A DNA stretch of 64,000 bases, from assembly GCA_905178155.1 (NCBI GenBank), contig CAJINV010000013.1, positions 2,484,281 to 2,548,280 on the forward strand, given 5' to 3'. The notes under the pieces are model-generated. The model ran no database searches. It was not told where the DNA came from and saw only the letters and a list, made by a program, of their open reading frames with translations. The stretch is from Amoebophrya sp. A120. Taxonomy: Eukaryota > Protista > Dinoflagellata. Below, in pieces: positions 29,466 through 51,650 of this stretch (within the stretch, counting starts at the first letter, position 1; every line of letters begins with the position of its first letter). Both the position numbers and the translations under genes were made by a program.

Positions 29466-30639
29466 CCTTCGTTTTTTTCGTCAGTATGTTCGCTACGAAA
29501 TCAATATGTTTGTGCATGCACTAATATGGACACGGTGTCTGTTGTGTCTACTTTAGCTGCTGCTGCAGCGCCGAAGCTCTGCAGAAAATAGAAAACTTGA
29601 AAATGACTTGTAGGCAGCTGTGGAATATGTTTATGTAGAAGAACTCAGACCGCTGAAAAAGAATGCAAATGGAAATTTAAAAGGTCTCAAATCGTGGAGA
29701 GAACCGAAAAAACGAAAGAAAATTTCGCCTCCATACCCAAGAAGAAAGCAGGCAGCAAAGCGACAACACGGAACACAGTCGGTGGTGGCGGAGCGGCAGG
29801 AGAGAGCACCCACTCTTCGCCTAACGAAGCAAAAGCTCCCGAAAATGGATGATGTTCGGACATGAATGAAAATTGAAGTTTTTGAAGAAAGTGGAAGTGC
29901 CGCAAAAGAATATATAACAATAATCAAAGCTGCAAATGAAAATCAAATGAAAAACGAAGGGTCTGAGCCCATGGCCAAGGATGAACAAACCCTGCAAATA
30001 CAACTGCCTGCCTATGTGAAAATTACAATCATCACGTGGGCAAGCAGGAGCGCAGTTTTCATCCATTCACTGACTGTGCGTGCGCTCGTTTCCCGGTCAA
30101 GCAATTGTGTTCATTCTCGCTCCTATTGCCGTTCGGAAATCTAAAAAAATGAACACATAACTTTACTGCAGTTGCCGTTCTTTTCTGCAGTTGCGCATGT
30201 GCCTCTGCTGAAAAACTTGCATTCGTTTCCTGGCCCCCGTGGGCAGAATGCGGCGGAACTGTCGGAAGTGGGGCGATTTACTTTTTGCCATTTGCGCAAA
30301 CACTTTGGGAAGATGCGCAGCGCTTTTCGAGCCGGGCGACCGGGGGTCAGCCACGAAAATGGTTGTCGCACGCAGCACGCGCTTTGGCTTTTTACTTCGG
30401 AAGGGCGCGAGCGTCTTCTCGTGTTCTGCCTGCGCTCGGAGCCGGGAAAAGCCTTTTGCCTACCGCGCGCACCTATTTCGGCTCCATCGTTGGTAGTGGT
30501 GATGGTGTGCGTGTGGTGTTTTGTCGTTTAAGAGCGGGAAAAAAAGTCGGCGTGTTGCGCCCGCACAGGCGCCGTTGTTTTGGTACTTGCCTGCGATGTC
30601 CTTGTCGCGTTCGGCAATCGAGGGCCGCGGCGGGCCGAA

Positions 30640-31830
30640 AAAAAAATGTTGCGCGCTGCGCGCCCGCAGACGCCCTGATCTGCTTCGGTAGCTGCGGGCC
30701 GGAGCGAAAAACTTTTTTCGCGCGCTGCGCGCGCAGGCTCCATGACCTAGTGTTGGCGCCACGTTCATAGTCTTTTTTTCGCGTCCAGCAGTCGGGGCCT
30801 GGCCGAGCAAATTAGTTCGCGCGCTGCGCGCGCAGGCGCCCTGACCTGGTACGGGCGCGATAGAGTTTTTTTTTCACGTCCACCAATCGGGACTGGCCGA
30901 AAAATGCAATTTTTAGCGTGCGCCCTGCGCGCGCAGGCGCCCGGACCTGTTGAGGGCGCGACATTTAGTTTTTTTTTCGCGTCCAGCGATCGGGGGCTGG
31001 CCGAAAAAAATTTGTCGCTTGCTGCGCGCGCAGGTGCCCTGACCTCGTGAGGGCGCGACGGAATTTGCTTCACGCATCCACCAATCGGGGGCTGGCCGAG
31101 AAAATTTTTAGCGACCTGCGCGCGCAGGCGGTCTGGCCCGGTTTGGGCGCAACATTTACAATTTTTTTTGGCGCCCAGCAATCGGGGGCTGGTCGAAAAA
31201 AAAACTATCGCGCGCTGCGCGCACAGGCGCCCTGGCCTGGTGACTCCGCCAATTTTTTTGTCGCGTCGTCCCAGCAATCAGGGCCTGGCAGAGAAAAGAT
31301 TTTAGCGCCCTGCGCGCGCAGGCGCCCTGACCTGGTGAGGGCGCGACATTCGTGTGTTTTTTTTGCGCGTCCAGCAGTCGAGGGCTGGCCCAAAAAAATT
31401 CTTCGCGCGCTGCGCGCGCCGTCGCCCTGATCTGGTGAGGGCGCGATGGGTTTTTTTTACGTGCCCACCAATCGGGGCTGGCCGAAAAAAAATTCACCAC
31501 CCTGCGCGCGCGCGTGCCCTGACCTGATCGGGGCGCGACGTTCATAGTTTTGTTCTGTGTCCAGCAGTCGGTGGCTGGCCGAAAAAAAATTATTCGCGCG
31601 CTCGTTGCGCGCGCAGGCGCCCTGACCTGGTGGGGGTGCGACAGATTTTTTTTTACGCGCCCGCTCGTCGGGGTCTTGCCGCCGGGAAAATTTATTCGCG
31701 CGCCGCGCGCGCAGGCCCCCGAACCTGGTGGGGGCGCGACGCAATTTTTTTTGCTTCCAGGTGTCGCGGGTTGGCCGAGGAAAAAGCGATCGCGCGTTGC
31801 GTGCGCGCAGGCGCCTTGGCCTTGGAGCGG
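30640..31830. repeat. Degenerate tandem repeat, ~97-bp unit, about 12-13 copies
   Basis: GCGCGCAGGCGCCCTGACCTG core recurs near 30828, 30929, 31025, 31120, 31217, 31314, 31609, 31706, 31803, with alternating T and A runs. Confidence 0.85.
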
Positions 31831-32754
31831 GAAAAAATTTTCTGCGTCGCGCCCGGATGTCGGAGGCCTGGAGGCACCTGGCGCCGAACGTAGGCGCCTG
31901 CGTGCGCAGGCTGCTGCGCGCTGCGCGCGGGCGCACCTCAGACCGCGCGCGGCCGCAGATGATCCGCTTGTCGACAAGTGTGGGGACGACGACAAGCACT
32001 TCAGCAACTGTCACAGCAAGTGGCCCGCTTGTTTTTGTGCGAGTTGCCGCAGGCTCGCCCAAGTTAGTAGAAGGGGCGAAGAGAGTAGGTCTGTGCCTGC
32101 TGGCCGTTTTGTTCTGAGAGGAGGGTCGTTGCGTCAGTAGCTCGGGCCCCTATCTCGCCCGCGTTGGTTTTTGCGTTTCGCATGGGGAATAGATTCTGGG
32201 AACCCGCGGAATCTATGGGGCACACAGAAAAGGGCGGGAAGGAGACTAGGGAAGGGGGTAGCGACGCAGGTTGGGGGATCGGGAAGCGACGAGGTTGCGG
32301 GGATGTGGGCGTCGGGAATGAGGAGGCTGGCAGGCCTGATCATGAACTACAAGAAGATCTTCAACTGCGTGCAGGAGAGCCGAGGAGCTCCTCCCATCTC
32401 CAGGGTTCTCCAGGACCGGATCATTGAGGGGCCCTCCCTTTTCCAGGTAGGGATCCCGCCTTTTTCAAGGAGGGCTCCGCTCGCCCCCGTTTCGAGAGGG
32501 AAGAAGCCCAAGATGGAGCATCTCGGCTTCCTCAAGGGGGGGCGGCTATGGTGGGGCCATCGTTGGCCTACCTGCGGGTGGGATTCATTGTTGCACGCCT
32601 TCTTCGAAGGGGCACTCCACTGCAGCCGGTCCTTCGGCAAGAGGCGACTGCAGGCGGCCTTGCGTCAAGACGTGACTGCAGGGGGGCACATGGCAGGCCC
32701 GCCTGCGGCTTCGCAGAAGGCGAGGGCGGCGGGTCTGTATTGCAGAGCTGGCAG

Positions 32755-33115
32755 CTTCCACTGCCAAACAGATGTCCTCGACTGCAGAAAAGATGGCACT
32801 CACTGCAAAAAAGATGGCCTCCACTGCAAAAAAGATTGCCTCCACTGCAAAAAAGATTGGCCTCCACTGCAAAAAAGATTGGCTCCACTGCAAAAAAGAT
32901 GCGAGAGGGGCACTATGGGGGCGTGGTGGGCAGGCCGTTAGCCGTTACTCTTTGTTAAATCCGTTAACCGTTACTCTTTCTTCGATCCGTTTTCCGTTAC
33001 TCTTTGAAAACATCACTTTCCTGCAGTCCGTTCCATCTTTTCTGCAGTCAAACAACACTTTGCTGCAGTCGCTGCCTTCAGCATCATCTTTTTTGCAGTG
33101 CAACTGCAAAAAAGT
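32755..33115. repeat. 21-22-bp minisatellite (CCACTGCAAAAAAGATGG), short CCGTTA array, then inverted degenerate copies
   Basis: About 7 direct copies 32755-32900; CCGTTA repeated 32935-33000; ATCTTTTCTGCAG-type inverse copies 33010-33100. Confidence 0.85.
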
Positions 33116-33254
33116 TTAGTGTTCGAGCTTTTAGGACACGCCGTTCGGGCGCAGGGCTTGCCGGCCTACCCGTGGCGGACCCCGGGGCCCGCCCCCGGAG
33201 TCCTTTCAAATGAAAGCGGGCGGGCCGTCGTGGTTCGGTTTCCATCTCGCGAAG

Positions 33255-33630
33255 GGGAATTCTTCGCCCAATTCTTCGGGGAATTTTTCGCGCAATTCTC
33301 GAAAAGCGGAAAAAAATCAGGGGGAATTTTGCGGGAATTCGTAGGATTGGCCACGCAGTAAAATTGCTAATTTTGGGGGGAATTCGGTGGGGGAATTTTT
33401 TGGGAATTCGGGCCCCCGGACCTGTTTCATTGTATTCGTGTGCGATTTTGGCACCCCCCCGCCGGGGGTTGGCAATTCGCAAAAAATTGCACATCGAATT
33501 AAAGACGCAATTAGAGAAATTTTTTTTGGTAATTTCCCCGGTCCGGGGCGGAATTGCTCACCAAATTGAACAAAAATTGTACTCGGAATTGGCTAAAAAT
33601 TGAACACAAATTGAAACAAAAATTGCCCGA
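33255..33630. repeat. GAATT/AAATT-periodic low-complexity array
   Basis: AATT core roughly every 10-12 bp. Confidence 0.65.
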
Positions 33631-33871
33631 GTTGGCTGAGGTGTATGATGAACGGAGCGCGCCACCTTGAAAGGGGGGCCTTGGTGTGGGCCCATGTTTG
33701 GCGGCCTCGGTGTGGCTTCCCCTTCGTTCCTTTGGCGCGCCGCCGCGGGTTTTTGTGTAGGGTATGCAGCCGGGGCCTGGGCGCCGTTCCGGCGCCTCCA
33801 CATACAGAGCCTCGCGCGGCCTGCCGATTTTCAAAATTGCGCAAGTTTTGCGCCCAATTTAGCGCCTTAGG

Positions 33872-34645
33872 TTGTGCGGCCCCGTTCGCCTGAGGAACGA
33901 ACAGCGCAGCGCTTTCGATTACAAAACCCGGAAGACCAAACGGGATAGGCGGCTAATGTTGAAGCATCATCCCGACCAGGTGAAGAGCAAGAAGCTGACG
34001 GCAAAAGACGAATTTGCGGCGCTTGTCAACTGGACGGAATTTGAACAAGTGCGGAAGGAGGGCAAAGAGTTTGAGTGTTTTCGCTTCACCGTGGCTAAGT
34101 GTGCCGGGACGAGTTTGAAAAAGATAAACTGCCTGCAAACGTTCTTCCAGGTGGAATTAGTCGGGGGGAAAAACAGGCTCAGGCTTCTGGACAAAGCAGA
34201 GACGCAGGTATACAGGGGGACGCACGTCTACCGCGCCGGGCACTATGATCGCAACCTCGGGGAAGATGGTGGCGCCGGCGGCAGCATGGCCAAACGGCCG
34301 AAGTTTGCGGCGCTAACAAACAACATGTCCGCAGAGGAAGTAAAGGAGCAGGTAGAGCTTTCCATCCAAGAGGAGAGCCAAAACTTCTGGAAATGCCGGA
34401 AAGTAGTGGAGCGTGCTGAAGTTGAGGGAGCCATGTGCCAGAACCTCGAGGATCGGGATGATGTTGCTGCCCTCTGTGGTATTGCTTTACTAGCTCTAGC
34501 TCTACCGCTAGCTGCTGGCAGTGCTATAGTAGCTGCTGGAGGTTTAGGCTTTGGCTTTGGTTTACTTTTTGAAGATGGGTATGAGCAGACGAAGACTACG
34601 AGAGCGAGACGATGCAGCGTGCGAGCAGTTTTTGATTTTTTGTAG
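33872..34645 (+). CDS. ORF with partial DnaJ J-domain
   Basis: RRLMLKHHPDQ...AKDEFAAL matches J-domain helix II-HPD-helix III. 3' part changes composition and may be intronic. Confidence 0.5.
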   Translation: MCGPVRLRNEQRSAFDYKTRKTKRDRRLMLKHHPDQVKSKKLTAKDEFAALVNWTEFEQVRKEGKEFECFRFTVAKCAGTSLKKINCLQTFFQVELVGGKNRLRLLDKAETQVYRGTHVYRAGHYDRNLGEDGGAGGSMAKRPKFAALTNNMSAEEVKEQVELSIQEESQNFWKCRKVVERAEVEGAMCQNLEDRDDVAALCGIALLALALPLAAGSAIVAAGGLGFGFGLLFEDGYEQTKTTRARRCSVRAVFDFL

Positions 34646-34845: not shown

Positions 34846-37800
34846 GTGCTTCTACGTGTTGCAATCGTAAAAAATGGAACAATGAAAACAGACTCCGACA
34901 CTTCCGCCAGTCAACGCGTCGCGGTTCCCGTCTACGCCCCGTCCGGAAAGTCGATCATCACCTACGAGATGAGAGCCCCGCCTTCGCCTAAGGCGTCCGC
35001 GTCTAGTAGTCCTGCTCCCGGGATGCAGCAGCAAGGCGTGGCGTGCGCACCCGGGACGACAAACAAAGAAATTGCGGCGGCTGCGTTGAACAACCTGCCG
35101 GAGCAGGAGCGGACCCGTCCGGTCCTAGTCGTGAGGCTAGGACCGGACGCGACGCCCGACAGATCGGGCAAAAGTTTCGCGATAGAAGTGGTTCTCGTCA
35201 GGATGCAGAACTGCGAGACCGAGGAACTATTGCTGAGACAATGTGTTCCGCTCGCTTGTTCCCATGATGGTGGTCATATGAGTGCTCTCTCGGACCTGTG
35301 CGACCGCCTGGGGGACACGGTCCCACTCCCAGGGGACCGCGTCGCCGACTGGCCAGGGGACCCAGTTGCTGCGTATGCAGTTGCCCAAGACGCCGGCTCC
35401 GACATCGTAACAGCTATGCGCATCTTCGCCGAAGGCAGCGCCGCCACCAACATAGAGAGGGCGGAGCAGCAGCAGAACGGGACACCAAAACAGCAATGGC
35501 TCATAGAGACTTTTCATCTGCCGCTGTTATGCACGCGCCACCAGGCCAGCTTGCTCGAAGGCGAGCTTGTGCAAATAGTTACAGCCTACATGCCGGATTT
35601 CTTCCTCGGCCTGAGTGCGGTCGTGCGGTCGGTGAATTTGTACAAGGGCAAAACTATTAAAACAAGCGACCCGAAGTATTTCAACCTACGCGCTTACGCG
35701 GAGCACCGGTGGCAGACGCTGTGCGTCACCCTGGGCGACCTGATCAAGTACGAGAAGGAAGCGCGAGCAGTAGTAGAAAATACATCGGCGCAGAACAAAC
35801 AGGAAGAGCAGAAGAAAACCCTCGCTAACGCGAGGAAGGCGCTCGGGAGCCGGGAGCTCATGCATGTCGTTAAGAGTCTCGAGAATGCCATGGAGGCAGT
35901 GGAGCACGTGCGCAACGCGATCAAGCGCGACCAGGAGCTGGTCTACACGTCGGCCAAGCACACCGAAGTGAAGCGGTACACGCCGCCGACTCGGACACAG
36001 CTGGGCAACATGTTGATGAAGCGCCTGCTCATTCGCGAGGGGGATACTTTGGGGCTCTGCCTGAAGCTGGAGATCTATCATCGTCTCCCCGATAGGTTGA
36101 AACAAGTGCACAGCTATCCCCACCAGTTCCTGCCCTGGACAAGCGGCGACAAGCAATTGGTGAAGGAGTCGGCGAAGCGGTTTCTGAGCATCCACCTCAA
36201 CAACAAAGCTAACTTCCTGCGGTTTTTGCAAAAGAGATACAGCAACGAACTCACGAAGGGAGCGGAGGCGGGGCATTTGAGCAAGCGGCTGCGACAGCTG
36301 CTTGTCCCGGTGAACCGCCAAACAGTACCTAGCAATCAATACTGCGAAGCCTTGCAGTCCGCGCACCAACAAGAGAAGGCCTTGGCCCCCGCCATAAAAC
36401 AAGCCAGGAACGGAATCAGGGTGCAGCGGGCCCGAACGAACCAGAAGTCGTGGGCCAAGTGGCAAGAACGCAAAGAGCAATGGAAGAACCTGCATGACCG
36501 GCGCCGCAAAGTCGTGAAGGAAAGAAGCACACCAGTAAAAAGGTTTGCGCGGGAGGTGGACCCGCTCAATAAGGTCGCGCGCGATGAGGTTGGGCGCAGG
36601 GGTCGCATACACCCGAGTCTGGACACCTTGCTTACCATCCGCAATGCAAAAAGTACGACGCCACGGCTATCGGCGAAGAACAAAAAAGGGCTGGCGGCCC
36701 GTTCGGGAAGAGCGGAGCACTGGTCGTTGCGCCGGAGATCGCAAAAGACGAGCTGCTGGACGTGCCGCTGATCCATGACCACAAAAACGGGCGCGGTTGC
36801 TCTTTGAGCATGTCCTTGCTCGATGTGGTGCGCAAGCTCGAAACAAAGCCTGCTCCTGCACCCGCTCCCGCGCCGGTCATGAAAAAGAAACCAAAAGCCG
36901 CGGCGAAGAAGAAGGCGATGTGGTGGGTTAAGACGCCGGCTGACGATAGTAGTGATAGCGACGAGAAGATGTGCTCGAGAAGAAGAAGCGATCGAAAGAA
37001 GAGAAGAAACAGCAGAAACAGCTCGCCAAGGCGTTCGGGTGGTGGTTGTGTTTTAGTAAGAACGGGCGGAAGGGGAGGATGATTCGACTACAGGGGGGAG
37101 ACGACGTTGACCAGCGGGCGTTTGCGTTCTCCTTCCATCCTGACATGGAGGTCATCACCTTCAGCAAGTGGATAGAGATGTCGCAGGAGCGCGAAGACCT
37201 GCGGCAGAAGTTCAAGTGCGAGGTGCTGCAAGGCGCCTCTCCGCTCATCTATCCTTCCAGTTACTACGGAGGAAGCAGGTAATGATCCGCGATTCGGAAG
37301 TCAACTGTTCGTCCCCGAAGGACACACGTACAAACTTCAGCGGGCCGCGTATCTGCAGCATTCGGAAGTTTGTTCCAGGCGGGAAGTAAAGGAGGTGTCG
37401 CGGGTCGGGTTGATCGATGAACGGAAGCAGCAGGGTGACAGCATGGAGTTCGTCGCGCGTGATGGGCGGATCGAATATGTTGCCCGCGATGAAAGGGCGG
37501 CAAAGTGGAAGGACACCGTTGACATTTCTCGCGCGGTGCCCGAGTGCGGTCTGTGCAAGGACCTGAACAGCGCTTACCTCATCTACAGGCCCGAGCAGAG
37601 GACGTGGCTCTGCGCGGTCATGGCGAAGGGATCCGCCGAAGCACAGCAGACAGAGTGGAAGCGTTTTGGTGCTTCCACCGGCGGTGGTGTGTATGATCAA
37701 ACAAAGATCATGCAGGCGCGGAAGCGGCTGTTGCGCAGGATCTTTCTGCTCAAGGAGTGGGGTGATGTTCCGGAAACAACGGACGCTATGGAGACGCTTT

Positions 37801-37892
37801 CGTGCGGTGAGTTGGAGCCGTACATCCGCGCGACCAAGGACATGCCGGCTCCGCAGGCTGCTACTTACGACGATGGCAACGACATCGATTAA
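34846..37892 (+). mobile_element. Divergent hAT-like DDE transposase (641-aa open core 34846-36771, frameshifted C-terminal extension to 37892)
   Basis: Ordered motifs: RLGPDATPDRSG (D1), AVAQDAGSDI (D2), LCTRHQASL (CxxH), EHRWQT (RW), VPSNQYCEALQS (like PxSxxxERxFS). Downstream coding-like segments overlap in shifted frames. Confidence 0.7.
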
Positions 37893-39000: not shown

Positions 39001-39228
39001 GACATTCCGAGAAAAAGTGATGGCGTTCGTGAGCCTCCAAAGTTGACGCTCTGCAGAATCTTCAGAAAGCACGTGTTTTGAGGTCAAAAAATCCAAAATC
39101 TTCAAGATTTTGAGCTCAAATCCTGAAGATTTTGGATTTTTCAGTGAAAGCGAGGCCGTTTTCTGAAGAATCTTCAGAGCGGCGACTTTCGACACTCACG
39201 GAAGTCATCAACTTTTCACAGATTTCGA
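39001..39228. repeat. ~230-bp imperfect spacerless palindrome
   Basis: Centre GAG|CTC at 39114/39115; AAAAATCCAAAATCTTCA / TGAAGATTTTGGATTTTT; outer GCTCTGCAGAATCTTCAGAAA / TTTCTGAAGAATCTTCAGAGC. Confidence 0.88.
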
Positions 39229-39528: not shown

Positions 39529-40253
39529 ATGGAGCAAGCGCGGCCGCGTTTCGACACCACGCCGAGCACGCTCGCCACCGATGAGGAGTGCGAGGAGTTC
39601 ATCCGCTTGGTCGCCGACGGCACGATCAAAAGCCACAAAGAAGTGCGCGACTTTGTGCGGATCCGGTTGCTAGACCGCTCCCGCGCGCAGCTGCTGGCGA
39701 TCGGGCGTCGCTTGTTGCAATCAGTGAAGAACCATGAAGGAAGCGAGGGACTTTTTTTTTAAAAAGTCTGTCTATGCCACCACAATTCCGCATCATCTGA
39801 CTTCGCATGAAGCACATCGCTCTTCATCCATCTTCAAGCTACTACCTCCAACACAGATACAAGCATCGCGCTCGCATGTGTTCCCACGTGGGCGGTATCG
39901 TCGATGCCTTCGCCGAGGCGCGGTTCGTGGCGCGTGAGCCCATTGGTGCCATCGCGAATCCGGAGACCGACACGTTCGAAGTGATTGATGGAGGGCATCG
40001 CGCGGAAGCGCTGAAACAAGGCGCGAGTCGTCATGGTCTCGACCCGGAAACCGTCGGACTGACGTACATTGTGTTTGCATACTCTTCATCTTCATGCTCA
40101 TCTTCGTGCTCGTGTTCACATAGGAACTTGCGCCCGAGGACGAAGCTGAGCTGCAAAGAACGGCCGTGGTCATCTTCTCCCGTGTATTCTCTCTGCGATT
40201 TCAGCTTCGCTCCAAGTTGTCACGCACGAACTTCGCGGAGCGTAGCGCGCTGA
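39529..40253 (+). CDS. ParB/sulfiredoxin N-terminal-like domain protein (spliced or degraded)
   Basis: VGGIVDAF...EPIGAI...FEVIDGGHRAEAL fits the ParB/Srx signature (PI.V...Y.IIDGxxRxxA). Confidence 0.6.
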
Positions 40254-40504
40254 TGTTTCTCCTTTTCGAGTCGAAACATGTAAAATCAAGAAACCTAAAG
40301 CAGGTTGATGATTTTTCACCCCAAGCTGTTAAAATTCCCGGCGATCATCGAAGTGTCCACGGCCGTGTGTAACGAAGGACAAACCGGGTTAGCGATGTGC
40401 TTTCATCAGAAAGCGCGCTCGTTCCGGAAGGTATTTCTATTGTCGCTTTTAGTTTCATGGAGGTGCAATCTGTGTCGTATGCAAGCTGAACATCGGGAGC
40501 ACTT

Positions 40505-41325
40505 TTAAAGCTTCATCCTGCTTGCAGCCTGTTTCTGATAATAGTTTGGCCTGTTGATGTAGCGCGTCAGCGTCTCAATACTTTGGTGACCAGTTATCTG
40601 CTTGATAGTACTAGGCGCGACGCCTGAGCGATACAAATGCCCCGCAGTGCTGCGCCTCGGTGTATGCGAAGTTATTAGATTCGCCGGTCATGATTCGGCG
40701 TCTTTAGGTCGAAGCGTCTTCCTAGCGATTCGAGTTTTTGCCTCCATAGCTTCGTAGCCAAAATTGAGCACCCTGCTACTTGCCGGCGCGAGCCCACTCA
40801 GTTTTTCTATTTGCTCCTTGAGAAAGGCCTTCGCGTCTTTCTCGGGCTCGATGCGCACCCATTTTAAGCGTCCTCTACCGCCCGGAGTGTCGGCAAGTTT
40901 CGAGTTGCCAATTGGGATTTTGTCTAGGTGGATGTCTCGCGCCTCGAGATACCGAACATCCATGCCGCGACGGCCTGTGAAGGTCTGTATCGTCCACGCA
41001 AGGCGATATAGTTCCCCGGCCCGTTTTTTGCGGCCACTGGTCGCCTCCAAGTGTTCCGCGAAGCGGTTACAGTCCTGCTTGCTTAGAGAACCACTCCGCT
41101 CCTCTCCGTCGATGTCTTGTTCTTGGTCCCGCACTGCCACTTCCGCTTTCCGCTTTTTCGTGATAGCGCGCATGGCCTTCTTCCTAGCCTTGCCCTTCTT
41201 CGTACTAGATTTGGGATGGCGGGCCAGTTCGTTGCGTCTCGGGTCGATCGTGATTTGTTAGCATGCCGCGCTGCCTTGCGGGAAGCAAGCTTCTTTTTCA
41301 TCGCATTGGCCTTTCGCTTTGCCAT
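40505..41325 (-). pseudogene. Tyrosine recombinase (phage-integrase fold), one in-frame TGA and a 5' frameshift
   Basis: FTGRRGMDV (catalytic R); reading through TGA at 40688-40690 gives SHTPRRS (HxxR), ITGHQS (H) and TLTRY (Y), stop at 40505. Basic N-terminus from ATG 41325 is in another frame; ATG 41173 is in frame. Confidence 0.88.
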
Positions 41326-41895
41326 CTTGTTAGTTTCTGTGATCGAAAATTCAAAGCGAGTTCCTGTGTAGCACTGCCTCGCTTGAAATGCGCCTCGTGT
41401 AGCGTAGCGCTGTATCTCCCTCCGTGGTTGCGAAATCAAAAACAAAGCACCGCATGAGTAAGAGTAAGCAGAGTGCGCCGATTTTCAAGTTCATAGCAAG
41501 CATGTCTACATGGCACGAAGTAGAAGTAACACAAAGCACCAACATAAGCCCATCGCTTCGGCGTCAGCTTTTTTGTTCTTTTTGTCGCTGGGAGTTGCAG
41601 TGTTTGAAAGAAGGGCCAGTGGGAGACTCGCATCGATGCAACTAAAGCTCATCACTCTCAGATCCGTTTCTAACTCGAGTTCTAATTCCTTACGTCTTAC
41701 ACTTACGGTTGCACTTACGCTATTTTTTTTCCTACATGTGCATGAGCATGGTCATGATATTACTAGCGGCGCTGTCAATACCAACTACAATTTCAATTGC
41801 AGACTCATGCTGAAAAAGTAAAAGATCAACTCACTCGCATGCTGAAAAAGAAAAACTAAAGCAGAGCCGTCGTCTCGCGGACCCACCCCGAGCAG

Positions 41896-44638
41896 ATGCT
41901 ATGGAACCAGCGCGAGTGCTTCCTGTCGGCTGTGTGGATTCTCTTTCCGGGTTCCAAGCGTCCGCTGCTGGGCCGCCTGCCCAAGGGGTGTGGTGACCTG
42001 TTGACGTACGAGGTGCTGATGGACCTGATGCGGCTCATCAAGTACAACAGCGACGCCACTCTGTCGGCCCGGTCCGAGTGCAACAGGATCCGCATCTCCC
42101 TGACTTGCCAGCGCGTCCGCAACTCGCTGTTGAACCACACCCCCGACGTACCGGCTTCGCAAGGAGCCACTGGCGCCACGCTCGACGCCATGAGGTCCCA
42201 CAGCAACGTGTGCACCGCCAAGGACCCCCAGAGCATCGGATTGCGGCTGCACCCCGTGAACGTCGTCGAGTGGGGGCACAGTGCCCAACAGGCTGCGGAG
42301 AAGAAGTCCTGCGAAGGTTACGTTTTCAAATTAAAGACGGTGATCAAGAACTGCCTGGACATGGAGACGGGCGCGTGGCTGCACTCCAGCTTCACACACC
42401 CTCCAGGAGCGGGGAGCTGCGCTTTCCGTCGCTAACAGCCTGAAGGTTGGTGACGTGTGTCGTCTGCACATGGACACTGACACCGCGTTGGGAGCCGGGT
42501 TCGCTGGGCGGCAGATCGAGATCAAGAAGGGCCACGCGATCAGCGTCGACTTGGCCGAGGTGAAGGGACGCAAAAACACCGCGCAGAAGGAGCATCAGGA
42601 TAAGGCTGACGCCGCGCAGAAGCGGCACAAAAAGACGAAGGGCGCGGAGTACGACTCTCCCGCGGAGTTCCAGAAGGCCATGGACGACTTGGACAAGGAC
42701 TGGAAGCGGCAGAGCGAGACTCTCGAGCGTCAGATGAACACTGCCAAGGCGCGCAAGTTTGTCAAGGGTATGGTCACCGCGACTGGGAAAGAGCTGGAAA
42801 GCGTATCGCTTTTTGTTTTTGATTTACAATTAGAATCGATAGCGCAAATACTGATAGTTTTGCTTTAGTGTTGATTTTGTTTCAGTTACGTCTACAGTGA
42901 GTTGCACACGTGGTGACTAGTTCTAGAGTTAAGGTTATGCTTATGCTGTTATAGTTTTAGTTTATGGCAAAGGTAATGGCGTCGGTCGTTCGCTTTTCGT
43001 TTTTAATTGCAATACAGTCTACAACTCCTGATACACAGTATCAGACTCCGCTCGACGCGCTGACCATCGACGACGTGCCTCTTTTATCGCGTGACTGATC
43101 GACCCGGCCAGCGTGTGCGAAGACTGGGAAGCTCCGAGCGACATGCCCAAGCGCTTGGGCGTCTTTGGCGTCCGCACCCCGATCCTGATGCTCGGTTGCA
43201 ATGGACTCCCGTATTTGGCGCGTATGACGTGCTCCAACTTGGACATGGCCTGGAAGTTCAGCGGCAATTTCGACAACCAGATCGAATCCATCATCTTCCG
43301 CCCGCGCCAGATCGTACAACTTTTCCCACTTTCGGCATTGTGTTGCTATTCGGGCTACTTTTAGTACTAATAACGCAGCAGCATCGTCTTCGTCTTCAGC
43401 TTCAACTTCGTCTACAACTACAGCAGCATCTACATCATCATAGACGAGCTGCAGTTCTTGTTTTTGCTGCTATTGCTACACAGAGAGCTTTGAGCTTCAG
43501 CATCAACATGGCGGGAAATTTTTAAGCTTTAACATTGAGAAGCAGCGCACAGCTGCGCTTCAGTGTTGGCTTCGAGTTGATCCTTGACGCAGCCGCTGCT
43601 AGTTGCAGTTGCTCTTGTTTTTTTAGTCGTTGCGAGCCTACAACGAACCAGCTGCGTCTTGATCTTCCTCTTCCTCTTCGACCATTTCATTATAAAGACT
43701 CTCAACCAACTCCAACTCTGACAACAGACCACCAGCAGCGACTTGGTCATCAACTTACTTCAAAGCTCCGGCGCCGCGCTACAGGGTCGCGGTGATTCAG
43801 ACCGGCACCGAGAAGCTGTCCAAGGAGAAGAAAAAAGAAGCCGACAAAGCCGCGAACGCGCTGAACCGCCTGACCAGGAAGACCGCTGACGAAGCCGACA
43901 AGGCTGCTTCTAAGGCTTCGAAGAAGCGCCCCAAGTCTTCGGCGTCCGGAACTGGTGATGAGGGCTCGAGTTTGGAGAAGGAGCAGCAGGACGTGGCGAA
44001 CAAGGCGCGCGCCGACTTGTTCTTCCGTCCGGTCGTGTTGGACGCGGACGTGGAGGAACAGGAGAAAAAGTAAGGAAAATGGGGGAAAGCGCAGTCGCGC
44101 TGGTACCGAGGAGCTTGCCTTCTGCAAGGAGGATTCTCCGTCTGGTAAGCGCAGCCGCGGACAGTCGTTTGAGGAGGCCGAGGAGCTGCTGAAACATGTC
44201 GCCGACCGCGTGTGGCAGACCCTGAAGGCCAGCATCGACTTGACCCCGGACGAGCTGAAGGCCATCTGTAAAAAGGAGGCCGAGGTCAAGGGCGCGCGTG
44301 CCAAGAACAGCGCGTACTGGGGCGAGCAGATCGCCCTGGCCATGTCTGCGTACACCATGATGGACGAGGAGAACATGGAGCGCATGAACGACTCCGACCT
44401 CGAGGGCGGGCAGTTGTTCCTGCGTACCGGCATGCCCGCGATGAAGTCCGCGCACGAGGAGTTGATGCGCCAGGCCCAGGGATCCTCCAGCTCTAGCTCG
44501 AGTTCGAGTTCTTCGTCCTCCACCAACAACAACAACAAACCGGAGGCGTTGTTGCCGACGGAGTCGGAGGCGGAACAGGAAAAGTCGAATTCTGATGATG
44601 ACGAAAAAGAGAAGTCATCTGAGAAGAAGAAAGAATAG
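41896..44638 (+). pseudogene. Multi-exon hypothetical gene with apparent frameshifts
   Basis: GC3-rich coding-like blocks 41896-42800, 43050-43310, 43765-44638; frame changes near 42415 and 44065 without room for an intron. Confidence 0.5.
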
Positions 44639-46274
44639 AGTCTATGTTTGTAGAACTAAAAGCACAGCTACTCTTTTGAGTGTCACACTCGCAGCGGGTC
44701 GGTGTTTTCGCTACTACTTGTTTGCTACCTTATTCGTTACATACTTATTGTGCCGGTAATGTGAATGCAAGCACGTGGCGCAGCTCGACTCGTGTTGTGG
44801 CTTTATGCTTTTCGCTCGTCAGAGCAGAACCCCTAACGCAGCCACATACTCGGTTGCATTTCGTTGTATTTGTATGCATCGAAAGCCATCTCTTGTCTGG
44901 CGCTGCTTCATAGCGATGCTTCTGCTGTAGCTTTGGAGCTGTTGTCAGTCGTCAAAACAATTTGTCACGACAGCTATGCTTCATGGGAAGGAAAAAATCC
45001 CACTTCTATGCTAAGAAAGGAGGAGGCATCGGCTTGATCTTCGTTTCGCTCTACCATGGTTGTACTACTTCGCTTGTATGTTAGAAGTGCATTACTATGA
45101 TTTCCAAGAACTTCGCGTTTGTTGTCCGAGCCTCCCCTTTCGCAAATACTGCGTCTTCTTTTTAACCTTCTCCGCTGGAGAAGGTATAGCAATATGCTAC
45201 GCGACACGCTGATAATTAAAAAAGCAGCGCAAGCACCAGCGTGACCACCTCGTCTCCATGGTGTGCGCATCGCTTTTTATAAGCCTCTTTTTCCGTCCCT
45301 TGTTAGGGGCTAGCTTCTAGCTCAACTCGAGTCGTTTGCTACTATTTTTGATAGCAGTACGACTACCACTATTCGGCGGATCCACCCAGCACTAGATAAG
45401 TTTGTTGCTGCGCTTGCAGGTTCATTTTTATCCTAGTGCTTTGAGCTTGTATATGAAAGCTTTGATCGGATTAGAAATTAACTACCTATTGTAGCAGCAT
45501 CGCTCTTCTTTGTCGAGACAGCTGGAAGACTGCGCTGAATAATCGGAACTCTGCGAGAGTGTCGGATCGGTCTAGCGAGCTCTTCAAGCTGTTGAGATGC
45601 ATCAATCTTTCTGGCACTACCATGATAATGAAATGCAAGCGATCGCGACCGTAATCTTTTGCATTCGTAGTAGTTCTCGAGCGCGCCGCGCATGCTATGC
45701 AATTCTAAGAGACCTCGAGCATTATTGCGAAGGTTTGTGCCTTTCGTGCGCGTCCTGCTCACGCCTGTGCTGCGCGACGCAAAAAACAAACGCTTTATCA
45801 AGAAGGCGAAGCTTTCGATGAGACAACGAATGAACGTGAGTTCATCAACTTGTAGCGAAAGCTGACACATACGAGCACAGTTGCTCCACCTTCGACGCCA
45901 CCGGGTATCGCGCGCACCCCCAAGCAAGTCGCGACTTTCTCGAAACGGCGAAAGCTTGTGGCTTCGCTTTAAACCACAAGTGTTCGCAAAGGTCACATAG
46001 AAAAGATCGGCGCGTGATCGGTGCTGCAAATGTGTGCTCGATGGCAAATAAAAGCCTTCGGTTGTTGATCAAGGCGTAGTCTTTATTTTCTCGGTGAATG
46101 CAAAATGTCGGCGAACTGCAAACGCAATGCAAAAGTTCTGCACACGTGAAAAAAAGAATGATCGTGCTACACAAACGAATACGCTTTCGATCGCAACTTC
46201 GGTATTTTGGTGAGCAAAGTCACATCCTTCAGTTTTGAAGTCTCAAAATAAATTGGATTTTTAAATACTCGTTT

Positions 46275-46880
46275 TTGACATTTTGTCCAGTCATATTGTG
46301 CGGTGAGTGGACGAGGAAAACGTACGCCTCGATTCCCGAAGCAGTGAGATTCGATATGAGGGACAATCTAGCAGAGGAGTTGCTTTTGTTCGCCGCCTCC
46401 GAGAACGTTTTCAGCCTTGCCCACGCGCCACCCGCGCTTCTTCGCGATCGTGAATTGATGCAAAAAATCGTTGCGATCCAGCAAGAAAACCCATTGTTCG
46501 CCCGAGTCGGGGAAAGGGAGGAACCCCTTTGTTTCGTTGACCGGGAACTCCGCGACGACCCTACATTCCTGCGCGCCATCTTTGAAGACGACGACCGCTG
46601 GAAGCAGTTATTGGCCCAAAAGAGGGAGCTCAGCTTTTTCAAGTGCATCAGCGAGGACTTACTGCGCAGGGACCGCCGTCTCGTCAGGGACTACGTCGCT
46701 CGCTTGCGCGCGGTCGCGAACGTACCAGCAGACGCGCTGATCGAGTACGACCGTAGTGCCGAGTCAGCTCTCGGTGGCAGTACCAGCCCAGATGATCGCA
46801 GACGGATCTCCTCTGCGGCGAAAGAGATCGGAGACAAGTACATTTTGCGGCCTGCACCAAGAAGAACGTCTGGCGCGTGA
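46275..46880 (+). CDS. DUF4116-like helical repeat protein (partial)
   Basis: Repeats LAHAPPALLRDRELM, LCFVDRELRDDPTFL, FKCISEDLLRRDRRLV. Confidence 0.5.
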   Translation: MTFCPVILCGEWTRKTYASIPEAVRFDMRDNLAEELLLFAASENVFSLAHAPPALLRDRELMQKIVAIQQENPLFARVGEREEPLCFVDRELRDDPTFLRAIFEDDDRWKQLLAQKRELSFFKCISEDLLRRDRRLVRDYVARLRAVANVPADALIEYDRSAESALGGSTSPDDRRRISSAAKEIGDKYILRPAPRRTSGA

Positions 46881-47639: not shown

Positions 47640-48340
47640 TCGAGATGTTGATGCCGATCAAATATTCCATGACTGAGAGAATATCGAATTCGATTTTCAT
47701 TTTTGTCTTTCTTGCTTCTCTCTCTCCATGCCTGGGCACGGCGTCATTGTTCGATATTTATTGCATATCATAAATCTAATCAAATCCTAATCCATAGATG
47801 TCATGAAATTAAATTTCGAAATCAATCTGAAGATGAGAATTGATTCATTTTTTTTTTTTTGTTGTGATCGGGTTCGGTATCTCAGGAAGATTCAATGGAA
47901 ATTGTCAATTTTATAACAAGATTTATTCAATTTCAATTCTATCTTGATATCTGGAATCTTAATTCGAATTATCTCTGTTGAATTTATTCTTTGAGAGAAA
48001 ATTATGAAATGAGGATGGAAATAGAGATAGATAATCATGGATTGGATCCTAGATTAATTTGAATCATATGCAGATATAACCGGAAAGAAAAAAAAAAAAT
48101 AAATTCATTCATTCTCGACGTCTAATGGTTTTGAAAAATATAGAAAATCTGATAAAGGAATCATAAGAAATTTATTCAAGAAAATTGATATTCTAGAAGA
48201 AATATTTTTTTTCGGCTTCCATATATCCAATTCATAAAATTATGAAATCGAAGACATCAGAAATTTTCGAAGAAAAAAAAAAAATTTCTTTGATTTACAG
48301 AATGAAAATCATTTTCAAATGAAATTTTTTATGAATATAA
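47640..48340. other. AT-rich non-coding block
   Basis: Sharp drop in GC, long A/T runs, no ORF in the track for most of it. Confidence 0.8.
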
Positions 48341-48454
48341 CTCCTATTGCTGAGCTGCGCGAGTTCAAACTTTGCGACGAGGAGGAAAATCGTCCACGCC
48401 GAAATTTTTTTGCCCGTTTTCAAACTTTCAAAAGCTGTCGCGATTTGCGAAATC

Positions 48455-49350
48455 GGCCAACGGCACACGGCGAACGGCCGACGGCGAATCGCCCAAGTCC
48501 CCTGGCAAACGGCGAATCGCCCAACGGCGAATCGCCCAAGTCCCATGGCCAGCGGCGAAGCGCCCAAATCCCATCGCAAACGGCGAACCGCCCAACGGCG
48601 AATCGCCCAAGCAAGTCCCATCGCAAACGGCGAATCGCCCCAGTCACGTCGCAAATCGAAATATTTTGCAAGCAAAAACATTTCGCAACTCGAAATATTT
48701 TGCAACTCCAAACATTTTGCAACTCGAAATATTTTGCAACTCCAAACATTTTGCAACTTCAAATATTTACTTGCGGCGCAAAATATTTCGCAAGTCCAAA
48801 TATTTTGCAACGCAAAATATTTTGCGACCCAAAATATTTCGCGACCCAAAATATTTCGCGACCCAAAATATTTCGCCAACGGCCGACGGCCAACGAACGG
48901 CCAACGGCGAATCGCCCAAGTCCCATGGCAAACGGCGAATCGCCCAATGGCGAATCGCCCAAGTCCCATGGCAAACGGTGAATCGCCCAAGTCCCATCGC
49001 AAGCGGCGAATCGCCCGACGACGACTCGCCCGAGTCCCATCGCAGACGGCGAATCGCCCAAGTCCCTTCGCAACCCGAAATATTTTGCAACTCCAAATAT
49101 TTTGCGACTCGAAACATTTTGCAACTCCGAACATTTTGCAACTTCAAATATTTTGCGGCTCAAAATATTTCGCAAGTCCAAATATTTTGCAACTCAAAAT
49201 ATTTCGCAAGTCCAAAAAAATTTTGCGACCCAAAATATTTCGCGACCCAAAATATTTTGCGGCCCAAAATATTTCGCGAGCGAAGATTTTTCGCGACGCC
49301 CAATATTTTGCAATCCCCGAAAAATATTTGCAGGCGAAAATATTTCGCAA
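48455..49350. repeat. Composite minisatellite: alternating GGCGAATCGCCCAA blocks and ~17-bp AAATATTTTGCAAC blocks (X-Y-X-Y)
   Basis: X about 48455-48655 and 48875-49070; Y about 48655-48875 and 49070-49350. Confidence 0.9.
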
Positions 49351-49389
49351 CAATCTGCCGAGACCCTGCCTCCCCGGTTTTGCAGCATA

Positions 49390-50060
49390 GGGAAAGCGGG
49401 AAGCACGGGGAAAGCGGGAAGCACGGGGAAAGCGGGAAGCACGGGGAAAGCGGGAAGCACGGGGAAAGCGGGAAGCACGGGGAAAACGGGAAGCAAGGGG
49501 AAAACGGGAAACACGGGGAAAACGGGAAGCACGGGGAAGCGGGAAGCACGGGGAAAGCGGGAAGCACGGGGAAGGCGGGAAGCACGGGGAAGGCGGGAAG
49601 CACGGGGAAAGCGGGAAGCACGGGGAAAGCGGGAAGCACGGGGAAAGCGGGAAGCACGGGGAAAGCGGGAAGCACGCCAAGCACGGGGAAGGCGGGGAGC
49701 ACGGGGAACGCGGGAAGCACGGGGAAAGCGGGAAGCACGGGGAAAGCGGGAAGCACGGGGAAAGCGGGAAGCACGGGGAAAACGGGAAGCAAGGGGAAAA
49801 CGGGAAACACGGGGAAAGCGGGAAGCACGGGGAAAGCGGGCAACACGGGGAAAGCGGGAAGCACGGGGAAAGCGGGAAACACGGGAGGCACGGGGAAAGC
49901 GGGAAGGGCGGGGAAAGCGGGTAGGACGGGGGAAGCGGGAAACACGGGGAAAGCGGGAGGCACGGGGAAAATTTAAGCGGGAAGCACGGGGAAAGCGGGA
50001 GGCACGGGGAAAGCCAGCGGGAAGCACGGGGGAGGCGGGAAGCACGGGGGAAACTGGAAG
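49390..50060. repeat. 18-bp purine-rich minisatellite GGGAAAGCGGGAAGCACG, roughly 35 copies
   Basis: Direct reading; + strand nearly T-free. Confidence 0.95.
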
Positions 50061-50939
50061 CACGAGCGGAGGGCGCACAGACGGCGGGGGGTACGCACGG
50101 CGAACGCCGCCGGCGGCCAAGCACCAGGCGAGCAGCTGCCCACCACCCTCCCCCGGCGCCCTCCCTCTGTTCGCGCAGGAAAAGCCGCGCCCCAGCGCCA
50201 GGCTTGCAGGCGAGCGGCTGCCCACCACTCTCCCCCGGCGCCCTCCCTCTGTTCACGAGGAGGCCGGCAGAGGGCGCCACCATCCGCCGTCTCTGTCTTG
50301 GAGGGTGCGCGCGAGGGAAACAGGCGGGGGCGGGACAGATTGCATGCCAGCTAACGCGGCGGGCGCCGTTGTTGCCCGGGGGTGCTGGGGGAGGGTGGTG
50401 GGCCCCTGCGCCTGGAGGGCAATGAATGCCCCGCCCCGGCGCCCGTCCCCCATCCACGCGCGCGACAGGGGCCCCAGCGCGCCCCTGCTCTGCAAGGCTG
50501 CGCGCGGGAGCAGGGCGGGGGGTGGCACCCACCAAGGCGCGCAGGGGCGGGGCACACATCCAGGCGGCAAGAACGGGCAACGCCACAGACGCGCGGGCGG
50601 GGCGTCACGCGCCAGCGCCTCGCATGGCGCGGACTGTAGTTCCCCTGCTTCCTTGCTCCGTCCACTGCCGCCCGCCCGCTGCCGCGCTTTGCGTTGCTGC
50701 TGGGGCCTAAGGCTTGCCGCCACGCAAGCGCGCGCCCAGTGCGGGCGGAGTCCTCGCGCTCGCACAACGACGGGAACTACGGGCGCCATGGCGCTCCGCC
50801 TTCGTTCTTCCAGCAAGAAGCGGCGCAGATGCCTGGCCCCGCCCTGCATCAAAAATTTTTTCCCTTGCCCACCCTCTGGCGTTTTTCTTTCCCCCCTGTC
50901 GACTCGTTCACCCTCCCACTGCGCGACATAAGCTGCGGC

Positions 50940-51360
50940 CTTGTAAATCTTGAAAGAATCCTCCATACCGATTCCCATCGATCATGACATATATTTAGAT
51001 TTCTTTTTTTCTATTTGAATTAACATCATTCCAACGAAATAATGACGAAATGATATGGGGTATTCCATGATGAATTAGATTTCGGAAATTCGGAGAATTT
51101 TTTTTTTGAATTTGGAATTATTTTCCGATATTCTTGAGAAGAGATCGAGAAATCAGAAAAAGATTTTCGGGAAATCATGTTGACTAAAAAGATTAAAAAT
51201 GATATCCGATTCCGATGGAGGGATATCAACACATCTAATTGCAAAAAATGATATTTGAATGATCATATGATTTTCGTTCTGATTCATTTTTAAATATAAT
51301 GGAATCAGAATTCTTCTTCATCTCGTCCTCTTTCTTTCATTTCCTTTCATCTCATCCTCT
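50940..51360. other. AT-rich non-coding block
   Basis: Same composition as 47640-48340; the two bracket the GC-rich arrays. Confidence 0.75.
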
Positions 51361-51650
51361 GTGAATGTTTGACCATCTAAGATGAGCACAATGCTCACAG
51401 CCATACGCGTATCCATATGTTCCGGATGAAGGAGTTTGTTATTCATCTCGTCATAAGTTACCTTGTTTATTTTTTTTGTTCAGCTTTCTCGTTTTCTTTC
51501 GTCGAGTGCAAATATGCCAGCACACGATGTAGATGAGCATGGTGTGACCTCCTGCCGATACTCACGCTAGCAATGCAGCGAGTGATCCTGAATAAGGCCA
51601 ACGGTGTAGGACACGCATTCGCGGCATGCAGCATGGCTTATTGTTTAAGC

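What the first reader, a model, noticed from the sequence alone, without database searches (positions are those of the whole stretch)
29600..51600. Candidate giant cargo element combining hAT-like transposase, tyrosine recombinase, ParB-like domain and a long palindrome
Seen: between two intact host genes lies ~22 kb with no housekeeping gene, kilobase repeat arrays near both ends, a DDE/CxxH/RW transposase, a J-domain ORF, a 230-bp palindrome, a ParB-like ORF and a convergent tyrosine recombinase. Known: hAT enzymes integrate with 8-bp TSDs; tyrosine recombinases resolve or integrate circles (Crypton, DIRS, fungal Starship captains); ParB/Srx domains are typical of plasmids and phages. Inference: this could be an undescribed large eukaryotic element with integration plus episome-like resolution/partition functions. 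I could not find its termini, so a nested pile-up of unrelated elements is equally possible.
Basis: partly seen in the sequence, partly recalled or inferred. Interest (0 to 1): 0.85.

Follow-up and report, generated by a model that had tools for sequence, protein, structure and literature searches.

The report
hAT transposon with recombinase and ParB
An 11-kb decayed block in a likely Amoebophrya marine parasite joins a cut-and-paste-type transposase, a plasmid-style ParB-like gene and a Cre-type recombinase, a gene set whose pairs likely also sit together in another strain, so it is likely an undescribed composite transposon family whose recombinase would act on a lox-shaped site hidden inside the transposase gene, while the flanking repeats are separate elements.

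Summary
The parts are real, but the 22 kb is not shown to be one element. The core (33.9-44.6 kb) holds a ~1,300-aa hAT-fold transposase gene (model matches Hermes, E 7e-6), a ParB-like gene, an antisense tyrosine recombinase (YR) and a further gene. The 'J-domain ORF' is the transposase's N-terminal piece. The nearest relatives are Amoebophrya AT5.2 proteins: 3 of 8 transposase gene models end in the same ParB-like domain, and 2 of 3 YR genes lie two gene numbers from a transposase (chance about 1e-5). The gene set is therefore likely inherited as a unit. This copy is dead (nonsense codon in YR, frameshifts) and has no relative of 80% identity or more in the genomic contigs laid. Its ends were not found. 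The flanking arrays belong to separate multi-copy repeats (A 30129-33144, B 33146-33894, C from 48336). New detail: a perfect 13-8-13 lox-shaped site lies inside the transposase ORF, over its first catalytic Asp. The closest known elements are Tec/Sardine and MarCry, which have Tc1/mariner transposases. The scan had already noted hAT+YR elements elsewhere in this genome (unchecked notes, none mentioning ParB).

The parts
29740..30008 (+). Last exon of the host GTPase (EF-Tu-like GTP-binding) transcript; not part of any element
   Evidence: Spliced contig in run X7, 0 mismatches; GTP_EFTU E 3e-8 upstream
30129..33144 (.). Element A: ~3-kb non-coding multi-copy unit with imperfect ~40-bp inverted ends (30136/33139) flanked by GCCGTTCG on both sides; holds the 97-bp and 21-bp arrays
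   Evidence: Only hit of an 8-bp-DR + TIR scan, 23/35, 0 in 30 block shuffles. Contig break at 30129 with depth 107 vs 46. Other copies diverge after 33144 or 33148
33146..33894 (.). Element B: ~750-bp multi-copy unit rich in GGAATT motifs; may be a separate element or the worn left arm of the composite
   Evidence: Several contigs at depth 99-143, one 85%-identical copy that diverges at 33894; motif density
33983..34480 (+).
   Evidence: BLASTP to 6 of 8 relatives, E 1e-11 to 5e-3
34882..37892 (+). Transposase core and C-terminal pieces (ORFs 34825-36771, 36588-37082, 36959-37282, 37176-37892); hAT/Hermes fold; reading frame changes at least twice after about 36.6 kb
35116..35149 (.). Perfect 13-8-13 inverted repeat (loxP/FRT geometry) inside the transposase ORF; its right arm holds the first catalytic Asp codon (35146-35148)
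   Evidence: 13/13 arms; 0 of 200,000 synonymous resamplings reach 13/13 at this place and 0 of 300 whole-ORF resamplings hold such a site anywhere; no second copy in the window
39006..39222 (.). 217-bp imperfect palindrome, centre 39114, between the transposase and ParB genes
39529..40432 (+). ParB-like gene in three coding pieces (39529-~39700, 39801-40082 with the DGGHR motif, 40299-~40432 with NEGQTGL)
   Evidence: Matches the C-terminal domains of AT5.2 g18063, g14887 and g14525 (E 1.5e-6 to 0.09; shuffle z 6-9 for 4 of the 5 pairs tested)
40505..41257 (-). Tyrosine recombinase pseudogene (R-K-H-R-H-Y present; TGA at 40690-40688); lies between ParB and gene X, possibly within an intron of one ParB-X gene
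   Evidence: GT donor at about 40432 and CAG acceptor at about 41863 seen in the sequence, not tested on RNA
41860..44638 (+). Gene X pieces. 41860-42435 matches the domain after ParB in g14887; 42344-42868 matches weakly; 43696-44638 is not significantly matched
   Evidence: E 7e-6; z 3.9, then 0.8 and 2.2
46239..46880 (+). DUF4116-like ORF; cargo or host gene, unresolved
   Evidence: E 0.003-0.005, below cut-off; run X3 has contigs only over 46033-47816 within the single-copy core
48336..50990 (.). Element C: high-copy repeat starting TATAACTCC and holding the 28/43-, 17- and 18-bp arrays; right end inferred from composition only
   Evidence: Summed depth about 4,000 at 48366 vs 42; other records start at 48336 with other flanks; no matching right end in the window
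51651..52601 (-). 3' ORF of the host alpha/beta hydrolase-like gene; convergent with the GTPase
   Evidence: Hydrolase_4 E 0.003, below cut-off

Best explanation
The block 33.9-44.6 kb is a decayed, single-copy member of a likely Amoebophrya-specific composite DNA transposon family in which a large hAT-fold DDE transposase would move the element by cut-and-paste, while its tyrosine recombinase likely acts as an accessory resolvase on a lox-shaped 13-8-13 site inside the transposase gene and its ParB-like protein likely binds DNA, perhaps the central palindrome. Shown: the identity of the transposase and YR, the non-random site and palindrome, the decay, the lack of close copies, and ParB fused to the transposase in relatives' gene models. 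Inferred: (a) that neighbouring gene numbers in AT5.2 mean physical linkage; (b) that the DDE enzyme, not the YR, integrates; (c) that the YR recombines two copies of the site, as in tandem copies, sister copies or circular dimers, and an exchange in the 8-bp core between identical copies would leave both transposase frames whole, which would explain why a site can sit in the ORF; (d) that the ParB-like protein organises the element or brings its ends together. Elements A, B and C are younger, separately repeated units gathered at the convergent border between two host genes; the composite's own ends are lost or lie under them.
For: Hermes fold. All five hAT/MULE-type motifs in 6 of 9 aligned proteins, RW in 9 of 9. 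ParB-like C-terminus in 3 of 8 AT5.2 transposase gene models (g14887, g18063, g14525), in the same order as in the window, and g14887 continues into gene X. YR g2071 with transposase g2073, and YR g1758 with transposase g1760, both in the order YR-one gene-transposase; P about 9e-6. Perfect 13-8-13 site not explained by the protein sequence; YR sites are 11-13-bp inverted repeats around 6-8 bp (PMC3212892, passages). The same paper calls the YR of the DDE+YR Tec elements a probable resolver of transposition intermediates. Core single-copy, flanks multi-copy.
Against: No AT5.2 locus is shown to carry all three genes. The in-between genes g2072 and g1759 were not retrieved (no hits), and 5 of 8 transposase models lack ParB and 6 of 8 have no detected YR neighbour. 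The fusions may be gene-model merges of adjacent genes (still linkage). No termini or TSD for the composite. The site occurs once and could not be checked in relatives' DNA, and another perfect 14-8-14 palindrome lies at 16625 in a YR-free insert. Canonical hAT cut-and-paste makes no cointegrate to resolve (recalled). ParB assignment is weak (no Pfam hit). The tree does not firmly group the window's transposase with the YR-linked ones (long branches, support 86/86).
Confidence: 0.55

Rival explanations
1. One giant element of about 18 kb (30120-48109) includes A and B as its left arm, with an 8-bp target duplication CATTCTCG and the palindrome at its exact middle.
For: A 10-nt direct repeat (30110-30119 and 48108-48117) lies symmetrically about the palindrome centre (midpoint 39113.5-39114.5 vs 39114), within 9 nt of the contig-defined border 30129. 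Depth over A and B is similar (about 2-3 times the flanks), so one near-identical copy of A+B may exist.
Against: No inverted ends at 30120/48109. The right copy of the repeat lies in AT-rich single-copy DNA and in the arm of a local inverted repeat, where such words are about tenfold more likely. Other copies of A stop at 33144-33148. Copies of A and B are 99% alike while the core has no copy at 80%.
Confidence: 0.13
2. The YR is the integrase (Crypton- or Starship-like): it inserts circles at a short CCGTTCG core, and A, B and the core are tandem cassettes, with the hAT-fold gene as passenger or second mobiliser.
For: CCGTTCG is the only 7-mer shared by all three contig-defined borders (30129, 33146, 33894); 0.24% of the window lies within 15 nt of one, and 40 of 200,000 random triples share a 7-mer. 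Other copies of A include 7 of the 8 'TSD' bases on the left and 5-9 on the right, which a random target duplication would not give. The junction at 30107 has the form GTGTTC-N15-core-N15-GAACAC.
Against: Two of the three cores were picked by my own TIR/TSD scan, so only the third is an independent test. The flanks of the other copies on the left were not displayed. The arms of these junctions do not resemble the 13-8-13 site. The YR is internal and antisense, not at an end. Target preference or co-duplication of A+B can give the same pattern.
Confidence: 0.15
3. A pure pile-up: transposase, ParB-like gene and YR are unrelated insertions that met here by chance.
For: True for the flanks. The YR interrupts what is one continuous ParB-X sequence in g14887 and g18063, as an inserted Crypton-like element would. 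One AT5.2 YR (g1514) has no detected transposase neighbour.
Against: Transposase-ParB fusion in 3 of 8 relatives and transposase-YR proximity at 2 loci of another strain. No short repeats or inverted ends around the YR stood out in the scans.
Confidence: 0.1
4. A remnant of an endogenous virus or Polinton-like element that uses a hAT-fold integrase.
For: The ParB+X region of g18063 is nearest to Nucleocytoviricota hypothetical-protein clusters and a phage ParB_N cluster in the ESM Atlas (0.94-0.95, 135-143 of 256 features shared, a lead only).
Against: No capsid, packaging ATPase or polymerase hit among 11 ORFs scanned in PHROGs or 20 in Pfam. No relative of g18063 in phage records or IMG/VR.
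Confidence: 0.05

Closest known systems
Ciliate Tec1/Tec2 (Euplotes) and Sardine/Thon (Paramecium) transposons (PMC3464196 and PMC3212892, passages)
   Same: [quoted passage not shown]
   Different: They use IS630/Tc1 DD35E enzymes with long palindromic TIRs and (Tec) TA targets; Sardine is about 6.7 kb. Here the transposase is a ~1,300-1,500-aa Hermes-fold protein, a ParB-like gene is present, the core is at least 11 kb, and no long TIRs were found
MarCry-1_FO (Fusarium Mariner-Crypton fusion; PMC3212892, passages)
   Same: DDE transposase plus YR in one element, moved by the DDE enzyme
   Different: Mariner-type, 16-bp TIRs, TA TSD; no ParB mentioned in the passages seen
hAT superfamily (Hermes)
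   Same: Fold and D-D-CxxH-RW-E motifs (H268 and W319 roles in PMC5225508, passages)
   Different: About twice the usual length (recalled); no Pfam hAT domain in 8 of 8 relatives; extra YR, ParB-like and X genes; TIR and 8-bp TSD not found
Tn3-family Tn4430 (TnpA + TnpI) and plasmid Par/Xer modules (recalled, not from a call)
   Same: Transposase with a tyrosine resolvase and one internal site; ParB with a palindrome
   Different: Bacterial and replicative; no ParA or replication gene was found here
Cryptons and Starships (PMC3212892 and PMC11162782, passages)
   Same: Eukaryotic YR elements with hard-to-find ends; Cryptons have 4-6-bp terminal direct repeats, recalling the CCGTTCG borders of A and B
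   Different: The YR is their mobiliser. Here it is a 250-aa phage-integrase-type gene, internal and antisense, beside a DDE transposase, and no host-derived cargo is shown

Membership tests
hAT superfamily | RNase H DDE triad with helical insertion (Hermes fold) | tested here: met
   D1 8/9, D2 8/9, E 8/9; Hermes top in Foldseek (E 7e-6, TM 0.28-0.31) and VIA-align (Z 9.9, rmsd 8.1, 292 aligned); model pLDDT 63
hAT superfamily | CxxH and conserved (R)W in the insertion domain (CxxH and W are shared with MULE, PMC5225508) | tested here: met
   CxxH 8/9, RW 9/9; the MULE-related ISCth4 ranks far lower, E 0.08
hAT superfamily | Short TIRs and 8-bp TSD bounding the transposase-bearing element (recalled) | tested here: inconclusive
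   No convincing pair for the composite; the copy is decayed and flanked by younger repeats; the only 8-bp DR + TIR bounds element A
hAT superfamily | Pfam Dimer_Tnp_hAT / BED / DUF659 domains | tested here: inconclusive
   No hit in the window ORF or 8 relatives; Atlas hAT clusters only at 0.81-0.83
Tec/Sardine/Thon | DDE transposase and YR in one element | tested here: met
   Both in the window; two gene numbers apart at 2 AT5.2 loci
Tec/Sardine/Thon | IS630/Tc1 transposase with short D-E spacing | tested here: not met
   D2 to E spacing is 319 residues with a helical insertion (positions 103 and 422)
Tec/Sardine/Thon | Long palindromic TIRs | tested here: not met
   No long inverted repeat joins the left and right parts of the region
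Crypton | YR as the only mobilising enzyme | tested here: not met
   A DDE transposase is linked
Crypton | 4-6-bp terminal direct repeats, no TIR | tested here: inconclusive
   CCGTTCG at the borders of A and B, but A has inverted ends; ends of the core unknown
Starship | DUF3435-type captain YR as the first gene (recalled) | tested here: not met
   P0001 and three relatives hit PF00589, not DUF3435; the YR is internal and antisense
Starship / cargo-mobilising elements | Faithful carriage of host-type cargo genes in several copies | not testable with these tools
   No whole genome held; the core is single-copy; the DUF4116-like ORF is unassigned
Tyrosine recombinase (phage integrase family) | R-K-H-R-H-Y catalytic set and profile match | tested here: met
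   TGRR, SKL, HTPRR, TGH, RY conserved in 6 of 6 rows; Pfam above cut-off; this copy has a premature stop
ParB/Srx fold | GxxR nucleotide-binding motif and profile or structural match (motif recalled) | tested here: inconclusive
   GGHR in the window, GSHR in 2 relatives, GRHS in 1; PHROG ParB-like E 0.007 in 2 of 7 rows; Atlas ParB_N cluster 0.94; no Pfam ParB hit; not folded
ParABS partition system | ParA ATPase and a parS site bound by ParB | tested here: inconclusive
   No ParA-like hit among the ORFs scanned; binding to the palindrome not testable
J-domain proteins | Full DnaJ domain above the Pfam cut-off | tested here: not met
   14.6 bits over 26 residues vs 27.8; the ORF is transposase N-terminus

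The most novel reading that the evidence does not exclude
Amoebophrya carries a family of 11-18-kb elements with a true plasmid-like stage: the hAT-fold enzyme excises and integrates them, the circles persist in the nucleus, the YR resolves dimers at a lox-like site coded inside the transposase gene, and a giant-virus-like ParB clamps onto the central palindrome to hold or partition the circle. The same YR also stacks non-autonomous cassettes (A, B) at CCGTTCG cores, like an integron.
Probability: 0.15. Interest if true: 0.9.

Novelty: new variant of a known kind. Interest (0 to 1): 0.64.

Why it matters
In the papers found, DDE+YR transposons in eukaryotes have Tc1/mariner transposases, and the YR's job is still a guess. 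A hAT-fold version with a ParB-like gene would be a second, independent assembly of that design. The perfect 34-bp site gives a concrete substrate with which to test the YR, using intact AT5.2 enzymes. The transposase family is invisible to Pfam (0 of 8 relatives), which may explain why a domain search reported only two putative transposases in A25 and none in A120 (PMC7789003, passages), so autonomous DNA transposons in these introner-rich genomes may be undercounted. A link to the 5-bp-TSD introners is not shown. A small Cre-like enzyme and site from a protist could also be useful as a tool.

Tried and rejected
No whole genome was held, so co-occurrence was tested through protein relatives and Logan contigs. 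The word-based search with the 629-aa ORF found nothing within 345-1101 aa; the relatives are longer and came from the full HMMER scan. The search for stand-alone ParB/X genes (37-539 aa) found none, so g2072 and g1759 remain unseen. YR patterns found no relative in JGI metagenome contigs or GTDB genomes, and one 40-aa, 40% match in IMG/VR (L001; not followed). The transposase and ParB alignments were too divergent for the search for related loci; g18063 alone found nothing. The single-sequence fold was unusable (pLDDT 37). The transposase profile had no significant PDB sequence hit. No Rfam hit in 29400-51700. TGA read as a residue was rejected: it aligns to Cys in 5 of 5 relatives, and the neighbouring host exons read under the standard code. 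A second copy of the 13-8-13 site (invertible-core model of earlier notes) was not found: best other match 20/34. A right end for C and for B was not found. Loose-end motifs of other copies have no match in the window (best 15/20). Expression: no RNA holder was listed for 33700-43000 (no evidence either way). The joint 39111 to 48336 has only 20 letters on one side and was not taken as a deletion form. Literature: no paper held ParB + tyrosine recombinase + hAT transposase + eukaryotic, hAT + tyrosine recombinase + giant transposon + cargo, Amoebophrya + AT5.2 + transposable elements + transposase or ParB + sulfiredoxin + transposon + eukaryotes + lineage-specific expansion. One search gave one paper whose passages were unrelated. 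One search gave one paper (PMC12130899) whose passages do not describe this element. Supplements of PMC7789003 (Fig. S4) and PMC12130899 (Dataset S2) were not opened and could list these repeats.

Full report
Host. No genome was held. The window is likely from an Amoebophrya species. The named relatives of both the YR and the transposase are Amoebophrya sp. AT5.2 proteins, apart from unnamed records and two MMETSP transcripts. A host intron at 27159-27469 has TAT..ATA inverted ends, a 5-bp direct repeat and very many copies, like the published introners (PMC7789003, passages and section 5). At 48-54% YR identity the window is not AT5.2 itself.

The genes. ORF 34825-36771 carries D, D, CxxH, RW and E motifs. 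A full HMMER scan of 1.84 billion representatives gave 8 relatives (E 2e-42 to 2e-6; seven of 1,272-2,239 aa, one 204-aa fragment), each being or clustering with an AT5.2 gene. Across the window protein and the 8 relatives the motifs are kept in 8, 8, 8, 9 and 8 of 9 rows. An AlphaFold model on this alignment (pLDDT 63) matches Hermes best by two methods, though with low TM-scores (about 0.3). The first break is likely an intron; the later overlapping frames are frameshifts. They are not assembly errors of the window alone, since the Logan contig has 0 differences and 0 gaps over 33864-48361 (this run may be the window's own source). The YR has a full catalytic set but a TGA where 5 of 5 relatives have Cys. 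The ParB-like gene is in three pieces that match the C-terminal domains of g18063, g14887 and g14525. The ORF at 41860 matches the next domain of g14887 (E 7e-6). The ParB call itself is weak.

Do the genes travel together? In AT5.2, 3 of 8 transposase gene models run on into the ParB-like domain, and one into gene X, in the window's order. Of 3 AT5.2 YR relatives (5 hits in all), g2071 and g1758 lie two numbers from transposases g2073 and g1760. With 8 transposases among at least 18,063 genes (19,925 in PMC7789003, Table 1) the chance is about 9e-6. This assumes that gene numbers run along scaffolds, which I recall as usual for such models but could not check. Against: no AT5.2 locus is shown with all three genes, the in-between genes were not retrieved, five transposase models lack ParB, and g1514 has no detected partner. 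Still, linkage at about 28% transposase identity is not what a chance pile-up gives.

Is the 22 kb one element? Laying genomic contigs (run X1, from 80% identity) gave one 14,498-nt contig at depth 42 over 33864-48361, equal to the unique host flanks (43-46), with no long second copy of the transposase, ParB, YR or X (the tool warns that summed depth is no exact copy number and that some records are filtered). In contrast 30129-33894 is covered by several contigs at 2-8 times that depth and 48336 onward at up to about 95 times. Other copies leave the window's sequence at 30129, 33144-33149, 33894 and 48336. A spliced contig in run X7 shows the host GTPase transcript reaching 30008 and has no depth over 30386-32674 or 33983-34300. 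Unit A (30136-33139) is the only 8-bp-repeat-plus-TIR hit in the region. However, other copies share most of that 8-mer, and CCGTTCG marks all three left-hand borders, so it may be a conserved core rather than a random duplication. No TIR/TSD pair bounds the composite. A 10-nt direct repeat at 30110 and 48108 is centred on the palindrome to within 1 nt, which keeps an 18-kb single element alive at low odds: it has no inverted ends and its right copy is in AT-rich single-copy DNA.

DNA sites. Keeping the protein and resampling codons never gave 13/13 in 200,000 trials (best 12, 23 times). It is single in the window, so the invertible-core model of the earlier notes does not apply as such. One other perfect palindrome of this shape lies at 16625 in an unrelated insert, which weakens the link to the YR. 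The 217-bp palindrome at 39006-39222 is real (z -7.8) and lies between the transposase and ParB genes.

Mechanism. Most likely the hAT-fold enzyme mobilises the element and the YR is accessory, as proposed for Tec1/Tec2 and as seen for MarCry-1_FO (PMC3212892, passages). One site per element points to exchange between two copies (resolution of tandem copies or circular dimers) rather than inversion, and such exchange would leave both reading frames whole. The ParB-like protein likely binds DNA, perhaps the palindrome. None of these steps is shown. Rivals are YR-driven integration at CCGTTCG cores (0.15), one 18-kb element (0.13), a pure pile-up (0.10) and a viral remnant (0.05).

Comparison and novelty. 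It works like Tec/Sardine/Thon (PMC3464196, passages) but fails membership: no Tc1 transposase and no long TIRs. It has the hAT fold and motifs, but the end features could not be established. It is not a Crypton or Starship. Ten literature searches found no description of hAT+YR+ParB elements; subscription papers and the supplements named above were not seen. This scan's own unchecked notes report hAT+YR elements of 12-16 kb elsewhere in this genome. Sequence look-ups with the YR, the palindrome and the left end of A found no look-alike, so whether they are the same family is open. Papers seen as passages: PMC12130899, PMC3464196, PMC3212892, PMC5225508, PMC11162782, PMC4738411; PMC7789003 as passages and section 5. 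The others were seen as search listings only.

Verdict. A dead copy of a likely undescribed composite transposon family, buried in younger repeats: new variant of a known kind, interest 0.64. The confidence that the core gene set is inherited together is about 0.8, and that the whole proposed mechanism is right about 0.55.

Noticed in passing
window 27159-27469: TAT..ATA introner with 5-bp direct repeat AGTGC in the GTPase gene; absent from the spliced X7 contig, with well over a thousand contigs of X1 laid on it (summed depth above 100,000).
   Followed up: partly
window 15901-17097: 1.2-kb TAT..ATA insert with internal inverted repeats and a perfect 14-8-14 palindrome at 16625-16660; coding repeats at 15857, 17103 and 18250 flank it.
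   Followed up: partly
window 30120-30129 and 48341-48350: The same 10-mer CTCCTATTGC stands just left of element A and at the start of high-copy element C; these are its only two occurrences in the window.
   Followed up: partly
window 33573-33607: Element B holds a sequence resembling the left end of element A (CGGAA..CTAAAAA.TGAACAC), hinting that A and B are related families.
   Followed up: partly
window 46033-47816: Run X3 (kind not on record) has four low-depth contigs here and none over 33000-45800 apart from a short palindrome match; the DUF4116-like ORF may be an expressed host gene.
   Followed up: no
window 39088-39112 and 48336-48355: Contigs from elsewhere in X1 and X3 carry the palindrome's inner arm followed by the start of element C, so the inner motif may recur in C-family elements.
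   Followed up: no
window 55060-57700: Another array-bearing insert outside the finding (114-bp x6 and 19-bp x47); such inserts are common in this window.
   Followed up: no
window 47814-48137 and 60444-60600: AT-rich 324-bp inverted-repeat unit left of element C, and a 157-bp inverted repeat near 60.5 kb.
   Followed up: no
P0008 and P0017 (MMETSP cluster members): Relatives of the YR and of the transposase N-terminus occur as MMETSP transcripts, so some family members are likely transcribed.
   Followed up: no
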